Origin: an uncultured Pelagibacteraceae bacterium | GTDB lineage: Bacteria; Pseudomonadota; Alphaproteobacteria; Pelagibacterales; Pelagibacteraceae | Direction of reading: 5' to 3' | DNA: 64,000 nucleotides | Assembly: GCA_902599335.1 (NCBI GenBank) | Contig: CACKFA010000005.1 | Coordinates: 39,420-103,419, forward strand | Part shown: positions 37,171 through 43,138 of the stretch, piece after piece | Layout: each line of letters starts with the position of its first letter | How positions within the stretch are numbered: position 1 is the first letter of the stretch | Position numbers and translations under genes: made by a program | Notes under the pieces: model-generated | The model's input: the letters and a program-made list of their open reading frames with translations, nothing else | Told to the model about the DNA's origin: nothing | Databases searched by the model: none

Positions 37171-37265
37171 AGTTAAATTAGTATTAATAACAAAAAATTT
37201 GCAATAATTAATTTAAGTAATAAATATTTTTTTTGATAAAAAAATAATGTAAGATAAACACGTTG

Positions 37266-37278
37266 GTTTTCCAACTAT
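37266..37278 (+). repeat. 13-bp direct repeat, right copy, overlapping the probable ssrA -10 region (TATAAC 37276-37281)
   Basis: Identical to 34553-34565. Confidence 0.7.
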
Positions 37279-37287
37279 AACGATAAA

Positions 37288-37522
37288 TGAATTTCGTAAT
37301 AACCATTGCGGACGTGGGGGCAGTACCCACCACCTCCACCATTAAAAAATTATGGGGGTGAAATAGATTCGACGGGTGTCTAAAGGCTATTCTTTCGTTC
37401 GGGATTGTTCCACCGCAACGGGCTATTTTATAATTGCTAACGAAAGTTATGCACTTGCTGCCTAATTAACTAAGTTAATTAAGCAAACGGGGTTTGGGGC
37501 ACCTGGCAACAGAACGCCCCTT
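37288..37522 (+). ncRNA. ssrA: Permuted (two-piece) tmRNA; 5' boundary approximate
   Basis: Acceptor piece ends GTGGG-GGCAGTA-CCCAC-CACCTCC-ACCA (CCA at 37341). A 12-nt spacer precedes the coding piece, which starts GGGGGTG at 37354 (G3:U70 pair). Tag reading frame 37436-37465 encodes ANESYALAA*. Confidence 0.95.
37484..37522 (+). repeat. attL-like copy of the island direct repeat (ssrA 3' end)
   Basis: 37496-37522 is identical to 39752-39778 (27 bp); the match extends to 39 bp with 4 mismatches. Confidence 0.9.
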
Positions 37523-37578
37523 CTCATTATTAAAAAAGTTTTAATTTTCAACGTAGATTTAAATATACAACTTAGTTA

Positions 37579-37600
37579 GACGACTATAGGACGACTAGAG
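37579..37600 (+). repeat. Left arm-type repeats GACGACTA x2 (11-bp period)
   Basis: GACGACTATAGGACGACTAGAG. Confidence 0.7.
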
Positions 37601-37615
37601 ATTTAATTTTTAATT

Positions 37616-37816
37616 TTAAATTATATCGCAAGATTTTAGAATAATTGATCCAAATATTATAATTGGAACAATACCCCAAATTGCATCCATGTCTTTTTCT
37701 TTCTTTTTTTGTTTTGCAAGTTCAGAAACTGTAGGGTCAGGTTTTCCACAATGAGGACAAGCTTTGGCTGATCTTGAAACTTCTTTTCCACACTCTAAAC
37801 ATTTTGCTAAAGCCAT
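37616..37816 (-). CDS. Zinc-ribbon protein with C-terminal TM helix
   Basis: CLEC-x10-CPHC, basic linker, AIWGIVPIIIFGSIIL. Confidence 0.8.
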   Translation of the reverse strand: MALAKCLECGKEVSRSAKACPHCGKPDPTVSELAKQKKKEKDMDAIWGIVPIIIFGSIILKSCDII

Positions 37817-37820
37817 AAAA

Positions 37821-37934
37821 TTATTTCCTCATTAGAGATAATAGTAATATTAAAATTGGAATACAAATTATAAATGTTGCTGCATCAGGTGAAACACCGA
37901 GAATATCCGCCACTAAATCTCTTATTGCACTCAT
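37821..37934 (-). CDS. 37-aa single-TM microprotein (not in ORF track)
   Basis: MSAIRDLVADILGVSPDAATFIICIPILILLLSLMRK*. AAGGA lies upstream and the ORF exactly fills the gap (2 nt and 4 nt) between its neighbours. Confidence 0.7.
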   Translation of the reverse strand: MSAIRDLVADILGVSPDAATFIICIPILILLLSLMRK

Positions 37935-37936
37935 AT

Positions 37937-38479
37937 TTAATTTCCTTCCATACAATTTTTATATATTCTTTTTCCAATAGCAACTGTATCAGCGTTATCT
38001 TTACGTCTTAAACACTGTTTTCTTTTTTCAAAATAATTTAAAGGGTTTAAATCACTCAGCGCATCTCCAACAGAGTCCACAGCAGAACCAACGTTGTCTG
38101 ATAAGGAATTTTCATATGGCTTTTGATATTTACATTCATATCCCGCTGTCTTTCCGTAAGTATAAGCTGATGAATTACCAAATTTCCAAGTATATTCTTT
38201 ATATGGATTTACAAATGTACGTCCCAATCCAACACTAAAAACACTTTTAGATGATTTTTTTATTTTAATATCTGAAATTTTATCTCCATCAGAATCATTA
38301 ACGTATACTCTAGTAATTCTAACAAACTTAGAGCCATTATTTTTAAATTTAAAATTTAGAAGATTTGTTTTGTTATAATCTTTAGACCAGCTAAAATCGA
38401 TATCATTCTTACAACCTGCTTCAGCAATGTTATTAAATAGTAGAGTTATAAATAAAGTTACAAAAATATTTCTAATCAT
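37937..38479 (-). CDS. Secreted Cys-containing protein, family A (long form)
   Basis: Signal peptide ending AEA. The C-terminal 35-aa module is shared with 38771-39055. Confidence 0.85.
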   Translation of the reverse strand: MIRNIFVTLFITLLFNNIAEAGCKNDIDFSWSKDYNKTNLLNFKFKNNGSKFVRITRVYVNDSDGDKISDIKIKKSSKSVFSVGLGRTFVNPYKEYTWKFGNSSAYTYGKTAGYECKYQKPYENSLSDNVGSAVDSVGDALSDLNPLNYFEKRKQCLRRKDNADTVAIGKRIYKNCMEGN

Positions 38480-38482
38480 TTA

Positions 38483-38764
38483 TTAAGAAACCTTATCAAA
38501 ACATTTTTTGGCTAAAGGTCTTATTTCGTTTATCATATAATCATAGCCTTTATCAACCAAAGCATCTAATTGTTTATCAGTATATTTTCCATCAAACTCC
38601 TTCGCAACACAATTGCAATAGGCTTTAGCAAAACTTTTGGACTCACCATCATTTACTGAAGCAGTATAACAAGTTTGACGTTCATATAGCCTTCTCTTCT
38701 CACTTAACGCAAAAGCATTTCCAGCAAAAACTATTAGTATTAAAATTAATATTATTTTTCTCAT
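38483..38764 (-). CDS. Secreted 4-Cys protein, family B
   Basis: Signal peptide ending AFA; C-x17-CxC-x35-C; paralogue of 39055-39342. Confidence 0.85.
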   Translation of the reverse strand: MRKIILILILIVFAGNAFALSEKRRLYERQTCYTASVNDGESKSFAKAYCNCVAKEFDGKYTDKQLDALVDKGYDYMINEIRPLAKKCFDKVS

Positions 38765-38770
38765 TAAATA

Positions 38771-39055
38771 TTATCTGTATTGTTCCATGCATTGTTTATA
38801 AATTTGCTTACCTTGATATACCGTATCAGCTTGATCTCTATATCTTGAACATCTTTTACGTTTTTTAAAATAATCTGTTGGACTAAGATTGTAATCACTT
38901 GTTTTACACTTAATTTTAGTAAAAATTGATTTGTTACACCTTTCAGCCTCTTCCATTCGTAATTCTCGTAGAGTTTTTGCTTCACTACTTGAATAGAATG
39001 AGAAAATAAATGTAAATAATAATACAGATAATGAAACTTCCAATAATCTTTTCAT
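38771..39055 (-). CDS. Secreted 4-Cys protein, family A (short form)
   Basis: Signal peptide ending SEA; shared C-terminal module; TAATG coupling to the upstream gene. Confidence 0.85.
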   Translation of the reverse strand: MKRLLEVSLSVLLFTFIFSFYSSSEAKTLRELRMEEAERCNKSIFTKIKCKTSDYNLSPTDYFKKRKRCSRYRDQADTVYQGKQIYKQCMEQYR

Positions 39056-39342
39056 TAATCTCCTGGTGCTCTAGCATTTACATTACAATAATCTACAGCA
39101 AAGCTGAACATCTCATTTTGCTTCTGTTGACTCATCAAAGCAGCTCTTTCAAGTTGTGTAATAGTATATTTATCAGTAACCATTATCGTAACACATCTGC
39201 AGTATTGTTTGGCTCTTTTGCTACCAAGATGTTGTGAGGTTTCTAAGCATCCTTGGTAAATTTCATTTTGATATTCATTTAATGCAAAACCTATGTTGGG
39301 CCATATTAATATTAGGAATATTACAGATAATATTTTTTTCAT
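39055..39342 (-). CDS. Secreted 4-Cys protein, family B
   Basis: Signal peptide ending GFA; C-x15-CxC-x35-C; ATGA coupling to the upstream gene. Confidence 0.85.
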   Translation of the reverse strand: MKKILSVIFLILIWPNIGFALNEYQNEIYQGCLETSQHLGSKRAKQYCRCVTIMVTDKYTITQLERAALMSQQKQNEMFSFAVDYCNVNARAPGD

Positions 39343-39629
39343 TTAAATTGCTTAAGACCAAGTTCTGTATACGTTTCTCTGTATTCAGCACTACAATCTC
39401 CCCAAATTTGATCGTCTGTTCTGTCATTCCATGCTATTATCATACCATCAAAACAAGTTCCCATCACACTAACATTTGTTTTTCTCACATAACCAAGAAA
39501 AATATCATCTGTGCAATCTCCTAAAACTGAATTGCCCGAATCCATTTCCCAACCAATACATGGAACACCGCTCCAAGATGTATTAACTGAGAATAAACTT
39601 AAAAATAATATTGATAATATCTTTCTCAT
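39339..39629 (-). CDS. Secreted protein with three 20-aa GxC repeats
   Basis: Signal peptide followed by PCIGWEMDSGNSVLGDCTDD / IFLGYVRKTNVSVMGTCFDG / MIIAWNDRTDDQIWGDCSAE. Confidence 0.8.
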   Translation of the reverse strand: MRKILSILFLSLFSVNTSWSGVPCIGWEMDSGNSVLGDCTDDIFLGYVRKTNVSVMGTCFDGMIIAWNDRTDDQIWGDCSAEYRETYTELGLKQFK

Positions 39630-39659
39630 AATTCAAGATTATCAAATCCTTTAACACGT

Positions 39660-39700
39660 GACGACTCGATTTTTGGACGTCATTTGGACGACCAGAGACG
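39660..39700 (+). repeat. Right arm-type repeats GACG(A/T)C
   Basis: GACGAC 39660, GACGTC 39676, GACGAC 39687, GACG 39697. GGACGACCAGAG (39686-39697) vs GGACGACTAGAG (37589-37600). Confidence 0.7.
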
Positions 39701-39739
39701 TAAAATTTATATATTTATTGAAAAATAACTGGCTATAAT

Positions 39740-39778
39740 CAAACAAAGTTCGGGGCACCTGGCAACAGAACGCCCCTT
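39740..39778 (+). repeat. attR-like copy of the island direct repeat
   Basis: CAAACAAAGTTCGGGGCACCTGGCAACAGAACGCCCCTT, followed by further T residues. Confidence 0.9.
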
Positions 39779-39794
39779 TTACAAATTAAAAATT

Positions 39795-40472
39795 ATGAAA
39801 TTAATTAAAGAAATATTAAATATTATAATTACTTTTATTGAAAACAAAAAACTTTATGTAAATGATATTTGCTTTGAAAAAACAAGAAGCTATAGGATAA
39901 ATCAAATTTACAACTTTTTTTATATAAACAAAAACAAAATAAAACATTATAAAAAAGTTTCTAAGTATAACGAAAAATATAACAAAAAATTTAGTGATAG
40001 TATAAAACATGCAAAAAATGCTGAAGTATCACCATTGTTAAGATTAAACAAATTATTAAAATCTTTAGAAATTAAATATGAAAATTTTAATTTTTTAGAC
40101 ATTGGATCTGGACAAGGAATAGCATTACATTTTGTGATGAGAAACTATCATTTTAAGAATTATTATGGAGTAGAATTTAATGAATATTTGTGTGATATTT
40201 CAAAAAAAAATTTAGCCCCTTTAAATAAAAAATTTAAAATTATTCATAACGATGCGAAAAAATTTTTTCTCGATAATTATCGATATATTGTTTATCTCTA
40301 CAATCCATTTGATGAAATTATTTTAAATAAATTTTTAGAAAATAATTTAAATTTATTAAAAAAAAATGAATGTATAGTTATTTATCAAAATAATTTTCAT
40401 ACTAAAGATATTAAAAAACTTTGTAAAAGAGAAGTTTTCATTGAAGAAGGTTTGTCCGTATACTATTTTTAA
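39795..40472 (+). CDS. Class I SAM-dependent methyltransferase
   Basis: FLDIGSGQG, GVEFN, HNDA, YLYNPF. Very A+T-rich. Confidence 0.8.
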   Translation: MKLIKEILNIIITFIENKKLYVNDICFEKTRSYRINQIYNFFYINKNKIKHYKKVSKYNEKYNKKFSDSIKHAKNAEVSPLLRLNKLLKSLEIKYENFNFLDIGSGQGIALHFVMRNYHFKNYYGVEFNEYLCDISKKNLAPLNKKFKIIHNDAKKFFLDNYRYIVYLYNPFDEIILNKFLENNLNLLKKNECIVIYQNNFHTKDIKKLCKREVFIEEGLSVYYF

Positions 40473-40474
40473 AT

Positions 40475-43138
40475 TTATTTTTTATTTTTAAGATCAGCTT
40501 GCGCTGCAGCTAATCTTGCAACTGGGACTCGATAGGGTGAACAAGAAACATAGTTTAAACCTGCTTTTGAGCAAAAAAATATACTATTTGGATCTCCACC
40601 ATGTTCTCCACAAATTCCTAATTTTAAATTTTTATTTTGTTTCCTTCCTTTTTCAACTGCTATTTCAACTAAATCAGATACACCTTCATCAATTGAAACA
40701 AACGGATCAACTGAAAATATTTTATTCTCTAGATAATCATTCAAAAATTTTCCACTATCATCTCTACTTATTCCAAAAGTAGTTTGCGTTAAATCATTGG
40801 TTCCAAAGCTAAAAAATTCAGCATGCTTGGCAATTTCCTTTGCTTTAATTGCAGCTCTGGGTAATTCAATCATAGTACCTACTAGAAACTCAATTTTTAA
40901 TTTATGTTCTTTCTGAACTTTGCTTGCAGTTCTAATTACTAAATCTTTCATAATTTTTATCTCAGCCTCTGTTGACACTAAAGGAATCATTATTTCTGGA
41001 AAAGCTGATTTAATTTTATTTTTTTTAAGTTCTGCTAAAGCTTCAAATATTGCTCTACATTGCATTTCATAAATTTCAGGAAATGAAATTCCCAGCCGAC
41101 AACCTCTATGACCTAACATTGGATTTTGTTCATGTAGCTCATCAATTCTTGACTCAATCTCTTTAACTGAAATATTAACTATATTAGCAACTTCACTAAT
41201 TTCCTTGTTTGTACGAGGCAAAAATTCGTGCAATGGTGGGTCCAGCAATCTAACTGTAACTGGTAATCCACTCATAATTTTAAAAATATCAATAAAATCT
41301 TTTCTTTGATGTGGCAATAGTTTCTCTAATGCTATTGCTCTATCTTCTTTTGTTTTTGATAATATCATTTCTCTTACAGACAAAATTCGTTCTTCATCAA
41401 AAAACATATGTTCAGTTCTACATAGTCCGATACCTTCTGCACCAAAGTCTTTTGCTGTTTTGGTATCTTTTGGTGTCTCAGAATTTGTTCTTACTTTTAA
41501 TTTTCTAAAACTATCAGCCCAAAACATTAATTTCGAAAAATCACCAGATATTTCAGGTTTCACAGTTGAAACACTTCCAGCAATAATTCTTCCTGTTGAG
41601 CCATCTATAGTAATAATATCGCCTTCTTTAATCTCAATTGAAGAAGTTTTAAAAGATTTATTTTCGTAGTTTATATCAATTTCACTTGATCCTGATACAC
41701 ATGGTCTGCCCATACCTCTAGCCACAACAGCTGCATGACTTGTCATTCCTCCTCTAGAAGTCAAAATTCCTTTAGCGGCATGCATTCCTTGTATATCTTC
41801 TGGAGAGGTCTCTACTCTTACCAAAATAGTATCTTGCATCATTGCAGTTAGTCTTTCAGCCTCCTCTGATGTAAATACAACTTTACCACTGGCTGCACCT
41901 GGTGATGCTGGCAATCCATTTGCTATTACATTAATTGAACTTTTTTCGTCTAAAGTCGGGTGCAAAAGTGTATCCAGAGAGTTTGGATCAATTCTTAATA
42001 CGGCTTCTTTTTTAGAAATCAATTTTTCTTTAACCATATCAACTGCAATTTTGACTGCAGATTTTGCTGTTCTTTTTCCTGATCTTGTTTGAAGCATCCA
42101 TAGTTTATTGCTTTCGACTGTAAACTCTACGTCTTGCATATCCTTATAATGCATCTCTAATTTTTTTAAAATTTTTTGAAGTTCTTTAAAGACTTTTGGC
42201 ATAGACTCTTCCATCGATAATTCTTTTACTTTAGCATCTTGTCTAGCTTTTTTTGTGATGTATTGAGGGGTTCTTGTGCCCGCAACAACATCTTCTCCTT
42301 GTGCATTAATTAAATACTCACCATATATTTCATTTGATCCATCTGATGGATTTCTTGTAAACACAACTCCTGTTGCACAATCATTACCCATATTTCCAAA
42401 TACCATAGATTGAACATTTACTGCAGTTCCCCACTCAGCTGGTATTTGATTTATTTTTCTATAAACTTTTGCTCTATTGCTTTCCCAAGATAAAAATACT
42501 GCACTTATTGCTCCTAGTAATTGTTTGAAAACATCTTGTGGAAAATCTTTTTTAGCCTTTTCTTTAACTGTCTTTTTGAAATCTTCAATTAATCCATCCC
42601 AATCACTTTCATCTAAATCCGTATCTAACAAAACGCCTTTTGTAAGTTTATAATTCTCAATTAGTTCCTCAAAGTGATAACTTTCAACACCCATTACTAC
42701 ATTTCCATACATTTGTATGAACCTTCTATAACTGTCTTTAGCAAATCTTCCATTAGAAGTTTTAATTGCTAAAGCTTTGACTGTTTTATCGTTCAAACCC
42801 AGATTTAGAATAGTATCCATCATGCCTGGCATTGATACTCTTGCGCCAGACCGCACAGACAACAAAAGTGGTTTTTTTAAGTCCCCAAATTTCTTAGAAA
42901 CATCTTTTTCGATTAATTTTAATTCTTTTTTAATTTGTGAAATTAAATTTTTATTTAATTTTTTTTTATCCTTATAAAAAATTTCACAAACTTTTGTAGA
43001 TATTGTAAAACCAGGAGGCACTGGAAGACCCATTCTTCCCATTTCAGAAAGATTGGCACCCTTTCCTCCTAAAAAGTTTTTAGGATTTTTAATTTTTTTA
43101 CTATCCTTAGAATTAAAGTTTAATATAAGTTTTTTCAT
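40475..43138 (-). CDS. ppdK: Pyruvate, phosphate dikinase
   Basis: LGGKGANL, SVRSGA, GGMTSHAAVVARG, GIGLCRTEHM. Confidence 0.97.
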   Translation of the reverse strand: MKKLILNFNSKDSKKIKNPKNFLGGKGANLSEMGRMGLPVPPGFTISTKVCEIFYKDKKKLNKNLISQIKKELKLIEKDVSKKFGDLKKPLLLSVRSGARVSMPGMMDTILNLGLNDKTVKALAIKTSNGRFAKDSYRRFIQMYGNVVMGVESYHFEELIENYKLTKGVLLDTDLDESDWDGLIEDFKKTVKEKAKKDFPQDVFKQLLGAISAVFLSWESNRAKVYRKINQIPAEWGTAVNVQSMVFGNMGNDCATGVVFTRNPSDGSNEIYGEYLINAQGEDVVAGTRTPQYITKKARQDAKVKELSMEESMPKVFKELQKILKKLEMHYKDMQDVEFTVESNKLWMLQTRSGKRTAKSAVKIAVDMVKEKLISKKEAVLRIDPNSLDTLLHPTLDEKSSINVIANGLPASPGAASGKVVFTSEEAERLTAMMQDTILVRVETSPEDIQGMHAAKGILTSRGGMTSHAAVVARGMGRPCVSGSSEIDINYENKSFKTSSIEIKEGDIITIDGSTGRIIAGSVSTVKPEISGDFSKLMFWADSFRKLKVRTNSETPKDTKTAKDFGAEGIGLCRTEHMFFDEERILSVREMILSKTKEDRAIALEKLLPHQRKDFIDIFKIMSGLPVTVRLLDPPLHEFLPRTNKEISEVANIVNISVKEIESRIDELHEQNPMLGHRGCRLGISFPEIYEMQCRAIFEALAELKKNKIKSAFPEIMIPLVSTEAEIKIMKDLVIRTASKVQKEHKLKIEFLVGTMIELPRAAIKAKEIAKHAEFFSFGTNDLTQTTFGISRDDSGKFLNDYLENKIFSVDPFVSIDEGVSDLVEIAVEKGRKQNKNLKLGICGEHGGDPNSIFFCSKAGLNYVSCSPYRVPVARLAAAQADLKNKK

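What the first reader, a model, noticed from the sequence alone, without database searches (positions are those of the whole stretch)
37579..39700. GACGAC repeats inside both island ends resemble tyrosine-integrase arm-type sites
Seen: left GACGACTA at 37579 and 37590; right GACGAC 39660, GACGTC 39676, GACGAC 39687, GACG 39697. All have the same orientation, with an 11-bp (one helical turn) spacing in both clusters. GGACGAC(T/C)AGAG is shared at 11 of 12 positions between the ends. They lie about 50-90 bp from the cores in otherwise very AT-rich DNA. Known: lambda-type attP has tandem arm sites on both sides of the core. Inference: excision would rebuild a roughly 220-bp attP, so the element may still be recombination-competent and the motif can fingerprint its helper integrase.
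Basis: partly seen in the sequence, partly recalled or inferred. Interest (0 to 1): 0.7.

Follow-up and report, generated by a model that had tools for sequence, protein, structure and literature searches.

The report
Integrase docking repeats on ssrA cassette
The GACGAC repeats are most likely docking ("arm-type") sites for a site-specific integrase, sitting on the two ends of a small, integrase-less gene cassette inserted at the tmRNA gene of a SAR11 ocean bacterium; the matching integrase itself was not found.

Summary
A 2,256-bp insert follows the permuted tmRNA gene and is bounded by an exact 27-bp repeat of the gene's 3' end. GACGAC-N5-GACGAC (one mismatch allowed) occurs only twice in the 1.27-Mb genome, once inside each island end.

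At least 25 other Pelagibacteraceae cassettes carry the same ends. Their cargo is unrelated (HNH and GIY-YIG nucleases, proteases, secreted proteins) and none encodes a recombinase.

I found a large family of marine 4-7 kb satellite-like elements (integrase, primase, small terminase) whose attP contains the same tmRNA core. In all 12 integrase classes read:
- a pair of class-specific direct repeats lies 11 bp apart, with its central CG 59-61 nt past the core, as in the window;
- a second pair lies 77-105 nt before the core.

The integrase has a predicted lambda-Int-like N-terminal beta-sheet domain, which is the most variable region among classes.

So the arm-site reading is well supported by architecture. 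Caveats:
- No integrase with GACGAC arms was found, and the genome has no integrase of this family, so competence is untested.
- The fourth right-hand "GACG" is window-specific.
- The first right-hand GACGAC lies in a conserved GACGACTCGA box of unclear role.
- The relatives are satellites, not pelagiphages.

The parts
37223..37524 (+). Permuted (two-piece) tmRNA gene ssrA, tag ANESYALAA. It is the integration target.
   Evidence: Rfam RF01849 at 223 bits; ARAGORN.
37496..37522 (+). Left copy of the 27-bp core (attL core), which is the 3' end of ssrA.
   Evidence: Exact repeat, with none found in shuffles. The 25-nt core is identical in the tmRNA genes of nearly all genus relatives.
37523..37578 (+). 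P' spacer between the core and the left repeats.
   Evidence: Conserved at 60-95% among 11 sister left ends. Not detectably similar to the spacers of integrase-bearing classes.
37579..37595 (+). P' (left) arm: GACGACtatagGACGAC, two direct repeats 11 bp apart.
   Evidence: Same position in 8 of 9 genus hits. 15 of 16 cassettes chosen only by their right arm have GACGAC here. Conservation of the left end stops right after the second repeat.
37616..39629 (-). Cargo: an operon of small ORFs, all on the minus strand. A Zn-ribbon membrane protein is at 37616-37816. Secreted Cys-containing proteins are at 37937-38479, 38483-38764, 38771-39055, 39055-39342 and 39339-39629. No recombinase.
   Evidence: ORF list. 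Pfam finds only a Zn ribbon.
39630..39659 (-). Conserved leader box (..gattatcaaatcctttaac..) directly upstream of the first cargo ATG. Probably the 5' UTR of a leftward promoter carried by the P arm.
   Evidence: Conserved in 22 right ends with unrelated cargo. A similar box lies in the P arm of an integrase-bearing element, L173.
39660..39669 (+). GACGACTCGA box, containing the first right-hand GACGAC.
   Evidence: At least 95% conserved in sister cassettes. GACGACTCGG and GACTCGA occur in P arms of other arm classes, L167 and L164, so its role is uncertain.
39676..39692 (+). P (right) arm: GACGTCatttgGACGAC, two repeats 11 bp apart, ending 59 nt before the core.
   Evidence: The pattern GACGTCATNTGGACGACCAGA was found in 15 metagenome contigs and 7 genome contigs, always in this context.
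39693..39751 (+). P spacer (..ctataatcaaacaaagttc) between the right repeats and the core.
   Evidence: 80-100% conserved in 22 right ends.
39752..39778 (+). Right copy of the 27-bp core (attR core).

Best explanation
The island (37523-39778) is an integrase-less gene cassette. It consists of a split lambda-type attP with cargo between the two halves, inserted by site-specific recombination into the last 27 bp of the tmRNA gene.

The GACGAC/GACGTC repeats are the arm-type sites. In this reading, the small N-terminal beta-sheet domain of a heterobivalent tyrosine integrase binds them, while the core-binding and catalytic domains act on the tmRNA-derived core. The 11-bp phasing puts neighbouring sites on one face of the helix.

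The integrase is supplied in trans by a rare 4-7 kb satellite-like element of the same family (integrase, primase or helicase, small terminase). Each integrase class uses its own arm word of the general form G-N-C-G-N-N at a fixed distance from the shared core.

The right arm also carries the leftward promoter and leader that drive the cargo.

Shown here:
- the architecture, its recurrence with unrelated cargo, and its match to integrase-bearing relatives;
- the predicted N-terminal fold of those integrases.

Inferred:
- actual binding;
- the existence of a GACGAC-specific integrase;
- present-day mobility.
For: 1. Uniqueness. The phased pair occurs only at the two island ends in 1.27 Mb and is rare and single-copy in the genus.

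2. Conserved ends, variable cargo.
- 22 distinct right ends and 11 or more left ends flank unrelated genes: HNH, GIY-YIG/NUMOD, trypsin-like, MrcB_N-HNH, GT47-like and secreted proteins. None is a recombinase.
- Among cassettes chosen only by the right arm, 15 of 16 have GACGAC 58 nt after the left core.

3. The same 243-aa cargo cassette sits at two different loci, behind another cassette (L089) and behind rnhA (L104).

4. A dedicated integrase family.
- P0001 lies directly 3' of tmRNA in G592.
- It has 1,020 metagenomic homologues at E<=1e-20.
- Un-integrated copies, one of them assembled more than once around (L151), carry P arm, exact 25-nt tmRNA core, P' arm and int in that order.

5. Shared geometry. 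In 12 integrase classes, a class-specific pair of direct repeats 11 bp apart has its first CG 59-61 nt past the core (GACGTT, TGACGTA, TGGCGTCA, TGGCGTA, TGGCGGA, TGGAGGA, AGTCGGC, CGTACGTA, TAGGTCGTA, TGTACGTC). Another pair lies 77-105 nt upstream. The window's pair is at +60/61.

6. The arm word tracks the integrase N-terminus, not the replication module. L170 (Prim-Pol) and L173 (different gene set) share TGGCGTC and an ..INKKGFPRI.KRF N-terminus.

7. Integrase structure. The AF2 model of P0001 (pLDDT 84) has three N-terminal strands plus a helix (residues 2-45). It aligns with full-length lambda Int over 338-362 columns, against 273-279 for lambda Int 75-356. Residues 1-40 are more variable than residues 41-150 and most later blocks.

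8. An independent control. L085, a tRNA-Leu-specific relative, has GAGCACACT repeats 11 bp apart at both ends.

9. A link to integrase loss. L082/L187 keep a P0002-type P' arm and the int leader, but the int gene is replaced by a GACGAC-type end.
Against: - No integrase-bearing element with GACGAC arms was found. Searches covered IMG/VR, cultured-phage records, 185,579 species genomes, one metagenome scan, 12 integrase context look-ups and contigs of four marine metagenomes.
- The window's genome, 92.6% complete, has only a Xer-like recombinase without an arm-binding domain.
- The window's P' spacer shows no similarity above shuffles to those of integrase-bearing classes.
- The whole right end is highly conserved, so conservation does not single out the hexamers.
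- The right-hand repeats lie where a promoter or operator for the cargo could be.
- Five sister cassettes have a hybrid left arm, GACGAC plus GTCGGAAT, and two have the 17-mer inverted. A simple one-protein model does not predict either.
- No binding or recombination data exist.
Confidence: 0.72

Rival explanations
1. The repeats are operator or promoter elements that regulate the cargo operon. A transcription factor would bind the right-hand sites upstream of the first gene, and the left-hand pair would be a terminator-side or unrelated element.
For: - The right-hand repeats lie 30-70 nt upstream of the first cargo ATG.
- They adjoin a conserved leader box present in all sister cassettes.
- In L077 the leader-plus-repeat module occurs upstream of two successive cargo genes, once without a core.
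- In integrase-bearing relatives the P' repeats lie 20-45 nt upstream of the int ATG, and one overlaps it in class A. A regulatory role may therefore coexist with recombination.
Against: - The left pair lies downstream of the operon, at a distance fixed relative to the core and not to any gene.
- The motif is found nowhere else in the genome, so it is not a general host regulator site.
- The cassettes share no protein that could be the regulator.
- The promoter scan finds nothing above background in the right end.
- The motif covaries with the integrase N-terminus in related elements.
Confidence: 0.1
2. The repeats bind another recombination accessory protein, such as an excisionase (directionality factor) or a nucleoid protein, rather than the integrase N-terminal domain.
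For: - P arms of integrase-bearing elements hold additional phased words. One is GAGTCC-N5-GAGTCC. Another is a near-universal AGTCGGAAT/AGTCGTAAT shared across integrase classes.
- Five sister cassettes pair GACGAC with GTCGGAAT.
- The elements encode small unannotated proteins next to int.
Against: - The class-specific word at +59-61 follows the integrase N-terminus across 12 classes.
- The same word is found on both sides of the core, as expected for integrase bridging.
Confidence: 0.08
3. The single conserved host Xer-like recombinase moves the cassettes, and the repeats are accessory sites for it, as with cer/psi accessory sequences or the attI direct repeats.
For: - Nearly every genome of the genus has exactly one tyrosine recombinase of about 325 aa, scoring far below the XerC/XerD cut-offs.
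- Most cassette-bearing genomes have no other integrase.
Against: - Many mutually different repeat words flank the same core in different cassettes, while the host enzyme is conserved.
- The host enzyme has a SAM-like N-domain and no arm-binding fold.
- A dedicated integrase family with matching att architecture exists.
Confidence: 0.05
4. The repeats are a chance cluster of a G+C-rich hexamer in AT-rich DNA, or replication iterons of a former plasmid-like element.
For: The hexamer is short, and the elements of this family do carry primase or helicase genes.
Against: - Genome-wide and genus-wide counts against controls argue against chance.
- The repeats recur at fixed distances in at least 25 cassettes.
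- The repeats flank the core rather than the replication genes, and they persist in cassettes without any replication gene.
Confidence: 0.02

Closest known systems
Phage lambda attP with arm-type sites (P1, P2, P'1-P'3) bound by the N-terminal domain of heterobivalent Int; also the Tn916/Tn1549 integrases (established knowledge; PDB 1z1b, 1z1g, 6en0 matched)
   Same: - A core identical to the bacterial site.
- Short repeats, different from the core, on both sides at tens of base pairs.
- The integrase is predicted to have an N-terminal three-stranded sheet plus helix, a core-binding domain and a catalytic domain.
   Different: - The target is the far 3' end of a permuted tmRNA gene.
- The arms are simple 11-bp-phased pairs at a nearly invariant distance.
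- Many integrase classes share one core but use different arm words.
- The window carries the sites without any integrase.
CIMEs, cis-mobilisable elements of Streptococcus thermophilus and other Firmicutes: att-flanked islands without recombination genes, moved by a related ICE's integrase
   Same: - Flanked by attL and attR of an integrating element family.
- No integrase of its own.
- Found in tandem with other elements at the same site.
   Different: - Much smaller (0.9-2.6 kb, one to a few genes).
- Promoter-equipped.
- The helpers are satellite-like elements rather than conjugative elements.
- Trans-mobilisation has not been demonstrated.
VEIMEs, virion-encapsidated integrative mobile elements (marine phage satellites; Eppley et al. 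2022, PMC9618062)
   Same: - The integrase-bearing relatives found here are 4-7 kb marine elements with a tyrosine integrase, Prim-Pol or AAA_25 helicase and a small terminase.
- The paper reports modules 2, 6 and 8 in Pelagibacter, and reports module 2 cargo of HNH endonucleases and serine proteases. These are the same cargo types as in the cassettes.
   Different: - The window's island has none of the hallmark genes, so it is a derivative and not a member.
- The paper's main text does not mention tmRNA, att sites or arm repeats.
- I did not test identity of my elements with their modules.
tRNA/tmRNA-targeted genomic islands (Williams 2002; Islander, PMC4383910), Dehalococcoides ssrA islands, and the SAR11 islands bounded by tRNA or tmRNA with partial repeats (Molina-Pardines et al. 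2025, PMC11796062)
   Same: - Integration into the 3' part of ssrA with regeneration of the gene.
- A displaced fragment marks the far end.
- Elements accrete in tandem.
   Different: - The SAR11 paper states that no canonical mobile elements were found in the islands.
- Here the ends are shown to be halves of the attP of a defined integrase family, with class-specific arm words.
Integron gene cassettes (attC x attI, IntI)
   Same: - Small, mostly single-gene, recombinase-less cassettes stacked in one orientation at one site.
   Different: - No attC-type imperfect inverted repeat and no IntI.
- The cassette carries its own promoter.
- The recombination site is a lambda-type attP split by integration.

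Membership tests
Lambda-type attP/attL/attR of a heterobivalent tyrosine integrase | A core sequence shared by the element and the bacterial site, bounding the insert as a direct repeat | tested here: met
   An exact 27-bp repeat of the ssrA 3' end at 37496 and 39752. The same 25-nt core is present in un-integrated elements.
Lambda-type attP/attL/attR of a heterobivalent tyrosine integrase | Repeated arm words, unlike the core, on both sides of the core | tested here: met
   GACGAC/GACGTC pairs lie 58 nt after the left core and end 59 nt before the right core. They are conserved in sister cassettes.
Lambda-type attP/attL/attR of a heterobivalent tyrosine integrase | A cognate integrase with a separate N-terminal arm-binding domain | tested here: inconclusive
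   The family that targets this core has the predicted domain. No member with GACGAC arms was found (and the 12 look-ups), and there is none in this genome.
Lambda-type attP/attL/attR of a heterobivalent tyrosine integrase | Arm word specific to the integrase (covariation of the N-domain and the arm sequence) | tested here: met
   12 classes have 10 distinct words at the same position. Similar N-termini share words: class A, and P0002/P0111/P0117.
Lambda-type attP/attL/attR of a heterobivalent tyrosine integrase | Physical binding of the N-domain to the arm sites, and dependence of recombination on them | not testable with these tools
   Needs EMSA or footprinting and recombination assays.
CIME-like cis-mobilisable cassette | att sites of an integrating element family at both ends, with no recombinase or transfer genes inside | tested here: met
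   window; sister cassettes.
CIME-like cis-mobilisable cassette | Excision and integration in trans by the integrase of a related element | not testable with these tools
   There are only indirect signs. The same cassette is found at two loci. Contig data gave no reliable excision joint.
VEIME / phage satellite | Own integrase plus replication and packaging-hijack genes | tested here: not met
   The window's island holds only small secreted or membrane proteins. Relatives L151, L153 and L085 do have these genes.
Integron cassette | An attC site (imperfect inverted repeat folding as a hairpin) and an IntI integrase | tested here: not met
   The ends are direct repeats of a tmRNA core with direct arm repeats. 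The only recombinase in the genome scores 29.9 bits against the integron-integrase model, whose cut-off is 265.

The most novel reading that the evidence does not exclude
The tmRNA 3' end of SAR11, together with copies of it seeded behind rnhA, pnp and sodB, may be a population-wide landing pad.

- More than 20 integrase classes would serve it. They keep one core specificity but have diversified, mutually orthogonal arm-binding domains.
- These domains would read a simple word of the form G-N-C-G-N-N-A-T.
- Promoter-equipped, integrase-less cassettes, each a split attP plus one to a few cargo genes, would outnumber their helpers by more than ten to one.
- Together they would act as an integron-like gene exchange in an organism described as free of mobile elements.
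- The GACGAC class would be a live 'orphan' class whose helper is a rarely sampled satellite.
Probability: 0.4. Interest if true: 0.75.

Novelty: new variant of a known kind. Interest (0 to 1): 0.5.

Why it matters
[quoted passage not shown] Recent pangenome papers state that its flexible islands contain no canonical mobile elements, and they leave open how gene variants get into conserved slots.

This finding, with the related elements, gives a concrete and testable mechanism for at least the tmRNA-linked island:
- site-specific insertion of tiny cassettes that keep only the two halves of an attP;
- helpers that are satellite-type integrases;
- cargo that includes nucleases typical of defence and homing functions.

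The arm words also offer a practical bar-code for sorting cassettes by helper class in metagenomes. They form a natural series of integrase N-domain/DNA-word pairs that could be used to study, or to borrow, orthogonal recombination specificities.

Tried and rejected
- Pelagiphage attP. An exact-core scan of IMG/VR found only complete phage-borne tmRNA genes in myophage-like contigs and no attP. Arm-pattern scans of IMG/VR gave only chance hits in high-GC phages. blastn of the left end against 50,697 phage records gave only one short chance match, to Acinetobacter phage Ac42. Published pelagiphage att sites are all in tRNAs.
- Cognate integrase. Scans of species genomes, with a long or short core anchor or with no anchor, found only cassettes. 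The one metagenome scan, with the right-arm pattern, found 15 cassettes and no integrase. Twelve integrase look-ups gave 12 other arm words.
- Crude code from N-terminus to arm word. For P0103 it correctly predicted 'TC' at word positions 6-7 but not positions 2-3.
- Excision evidence. Laying contigs of four marine metagenomes on the island gave only short, ambiguous joints at the repeated core. Contigs diverging after the left arm lead into other cargo, not into an int leader.
- Promoter scan of the ends found nothing above shuffles.
- Spacer homology between the window's P' arm and integrase-bearing classes was not above shuffles. I dropped that argument, except for a local 18/20 match in the L064 type.
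- Host Xer-like recombinase as helper. Considered and given low weight.
Full report
**The observation**

The window holds a permuted alpha-proteobacterial tmRNA gene at 37223-37524 (Rfam RF01849, 223 bits; ARAGORN). Its last 27 bp, GGGGCACCTGGCAACAGAACGCCCCTT, recur exactly at 39752-39778. This delimits a 2,256-bp insert.

- GACGAC at 37579 and 37590, 11 bp apart;
- GACGAC at 39660, GACGTC at 39676, GACGAC at 39687 and GACG at 39697, with spacings of 16, 11 and 10 bp.

The evidence that this is not chance:
- The window has six GACGAC against 2.2 expected, and four are in these two patches.
- In the whole 1.27-Mb assembly, GACGAC-N5-GACGAC with at most one mismatch occurs exactly twice, at the two island ends. 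The reversed control gives none.
- Across 401 genomes of the genus, the 17-mer GACGACTANAGGACGAC (at most 1 mismatch) occurs in nine genomes, once each, against two control hits.

**What is inside and around the island**

All island ORFs are on the minus strand. They encode a Zn-ribbon membrane protein and small secreted Cys-containing proteins, and no recombinase.

The assembly is 92.6% complete. It has a single tyrosine recombinase of 317 aa, with a SAM-like N-domain and 70 bits against XerD, whose cut-off is 330. Nearly all genus relatives have one orthologue of it, elsewhere in the genome.

The tmRNA end is an integration hot spot:
- About half of 36 genus relatives carry extra copies of the core, behind tmRNA or behind rnhA, pnp and sodB.
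- The DNA next to those cores carries other short tandem repeats. Examples are TTTACATTGAAG, ACACGAAG, CTATGTAC, GTACGGGAT, TGGCACAAT, TGGCGTCAT and GGTCGGC.

**A family of cassettes with the same ends**

Pattern scans found the GACGAC-type ends repeatedly in Pelagibacteraceae single-cell genomes and marine metagenome contigs.
- The left arm lies 58 nt after a core.
- The right arm, GACGACtcgatttttgGACGTCatatgGACGACcaga, lies about 59 nt before a core, in 15 metagenome and 7 genome contigs.
- Every case has the same layout: core, left end, cargo on the minus strand, a conserved leader box, right arm, core.

The cargo is unrelated from one cassette to the next: HNH endonucleases, GIY-YIG/NUMOD nucleases, trypsin-like peptidases, MrcB_N-HNH, a GT47-like protein and secreted proteins. 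It never includes a recombinase.

Further points on these cassettes:
- Of 16 cassettes selected only by their right arm and having a left core on the contig, 15 have GACGAC at +58. Ten have the full GACGACtatagGACGAC and five have a hybrid GACGACtatgaGTCGGAatt.
- Conservation of the left end stops immediately after the second repeat.
- The right end is conserved from the leader box to the core.
- One 243-aa cargo cassette is found behind another cassette in L089 and behind rnhA in L104.
- In two genomes the 17-mer is inverted in place. In L100 the first right-hand hexamer reads GTCGTC.
- The window's fourth 'GACG' is not conserved.

**The integrases**

A first positive control came from G008 (L085). 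It is a satellite-like element with an integrase, an AAA_25 helicase and a small terminase.
- It is integrated in tRNA-Leu(GAG) with a 34-bp repeat.
- It has GAGCACACT words 11 bp apart at both ends.

Searching 401 family genomes with that integrase found relatives in 34. Two of these lie directly 3' of tmRNA.
- In G592 (L148) the core is followed after 57 nt by GACGTTcatagGACGTT. A third copy overlaps the ATG of a 334-aa integrase (P0001). A 106-aa ORF and a 511-aa ORF homologous to Prim-Pol-annotated genes of related elements follow.
- In G294 (L149) the pair is TGGCGTCAtggTGGCGTCA.

P0001 has 1,020 homologues at E<=1e-20, all from marine metagenomes and mostly on 1-7 kb contigs. Their contexts show two kinds of copy:
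- un-integrated copies with a complete attP upstream of int; one of them, L151, was assembled more than once around a circle of about 4.4 kb;
- integrated copies at tmRNA, behind pnp and elsewhere (L175-L177).

In all 12 classes read, a class-specific pair of direct repeats 11 bp apart has its first CG 59-61 nt beyond the core. A second pair lies 77-105 nt before the core. The window's pair, with CG at 60-61, fits this geometry. Its word fits the series GACGTT, GACGTA, GGCGTC, GTACGTC, GTCGTA and GTCGGC.

The arm word follows the integrase N-terminus, not the replication genes. The first 40 residues are more variable than residues 41-150 and most of the catalytic domain.

An AlphaFold model (pLDDT 84) gives three N-terminal strands and a helix ahead of typical core-binding and catalytic domains. 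It aligns to full-length lambda integrase over 338-362 columns, against 273-279 for the N-terminally truncated protein. The other top hits are Tn1549 integrase.

**Interpretation**

The best reading is that the island is a cis-mobilisable derivative of such an element. The integrase and replication module have been replaced by cargo, and both attP halves have been kept. L082/L187 show such a loss directly: a P0002-type P' arm and int leader are fused to a GACGAC-type end where the int gene should start.

The GACGAC/GACGTC pairs would be the arm-type sites. The right end also supplies the leftward leader for the cargo, and a comparable box sits in the P arm of the integrase-bearing L173.

**What remains open**

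- I did not find the integrase that goes with GACGAC, despite using every collection available.
- The window's spacer is not recognisably related to those of the integrase-bearing classes.
- The role of the GACGACTCGA box and of the widely shared AGTCGGAAT word is unclear.
- No excision product could be shown.

The claim is therefore that the repeats work like arm-type sites of this integrase family, with confidence about 0.7. It is not shown that the cassette is currently mobile.

**Relation to what is known**

- Lambda-type arm sites and CIME-like integrase-less islands are established concepts.
- Marine phage satellites (VEIMEs) in Pelagibacter, with HNH and serine-protease cargo, are published.
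- SAR11 islands bounded by tRNA or tmRNA with partial repeats are published too, although described as lacking mobile elements.
- I did not find a description, in the papers searched, of the att architecture, of the class-specific arm words or of the abundance of minimal cassettes.

Earlier agents of this scan reported the same class of cassette, with other arm words, in other SAR11 genomes. I used these as leads only and re-derived the integrase family independently here.

Noticed in passing
L069-L076 (IMG/VR contigs; e.g. L069:10600-10850): Myophage-like viral contigs encoding ribonucleotide reductase and other phage genes carry a complete permuted tmRNA gene of their own. Its tag is ADENLALAA, and its last 25 nt are identical to the SAR11 ssrA core.
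   Followed up: partly
window 38753-39330: Contigs from three marine metagenomes carry the island with a clean 578-bp deletion. The deletion removes one of the two paralogous gene pairs (the 94-aa and 95-aa ORFs), so the duplicated pair is polymorphic in nature.
   Followed up: no
L045, L047-L049, L104, L175 (relatives); L064/L262 next to sodB: Copies of the tmRNA core, with cassettes or integrase-bearing elements attached, also sit just downstream of rnhA, pnp and a small ORF next to sodB. The landing site has therefore been seeded at secondary loci.
   Followed up: partly
G000:C9:791-1744 (L053): The only tyrosine recombinase in the assembly is a 317-aa Xer-like protein, far below the XerC/XerD model cut-offs. 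Nearly every genome of the genus has exactly one orthologue. No canonical XerC/XerD pair was detected by the PF00589 search.
   Followed up: partly
L151, L153, L164, L167, L168, L174: about 130-170 nt upstream of the attP core: P arms of integrase-bearing elements contain a small hairpin with a conserved CAACAG/AACA loop. Its stem changes in a compensatory way between classes (GGCAT/ATGCC, GCCCG/CGGGC, GCTT/AAGC, GCGC/GCGC). Its function is unknown, and it is absent from the window's cassette.
   Followed up: no
window 39795-40472: A 225-aa methyltransferase-like ORF with 19% G+C lies between the right core and the conserved flank gene (pyruvate phosphate dikinase, 40475-43138). In several relatives the dikinase gene directly follows the last core, so this ORF may be an older insertion whose far core has decayed.
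   Followed up: no
L004, L014, L024, L049, L103 (left ends next to tmRNA cores): Another cassette class carries three 12-bp-spaced repeats (TTTACATTGAAG, TTCAATGAAG or ACACGAAGTTT) about 45 nt after the core. Its cargo is restriction-modification genes plus a conserved 110-aa ORF. These words do not fit the G-N-C-G-N-N series, so they may belong to a different integrase family.
   Followed up: no
window 37937-39342: The island's secreted proteins form two paralogue families. The 180-aa and 94-aa proteins share a C-terminal YF.KRK.C...D.ADTV..GK.IYK.CME module, and the 93-aa and 95-aa proteins resemble each other. A homologue of the 95-aa protein and of the Zn-ribbon protein occurs in a different sister cassette (L094).
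   Followed up: partly
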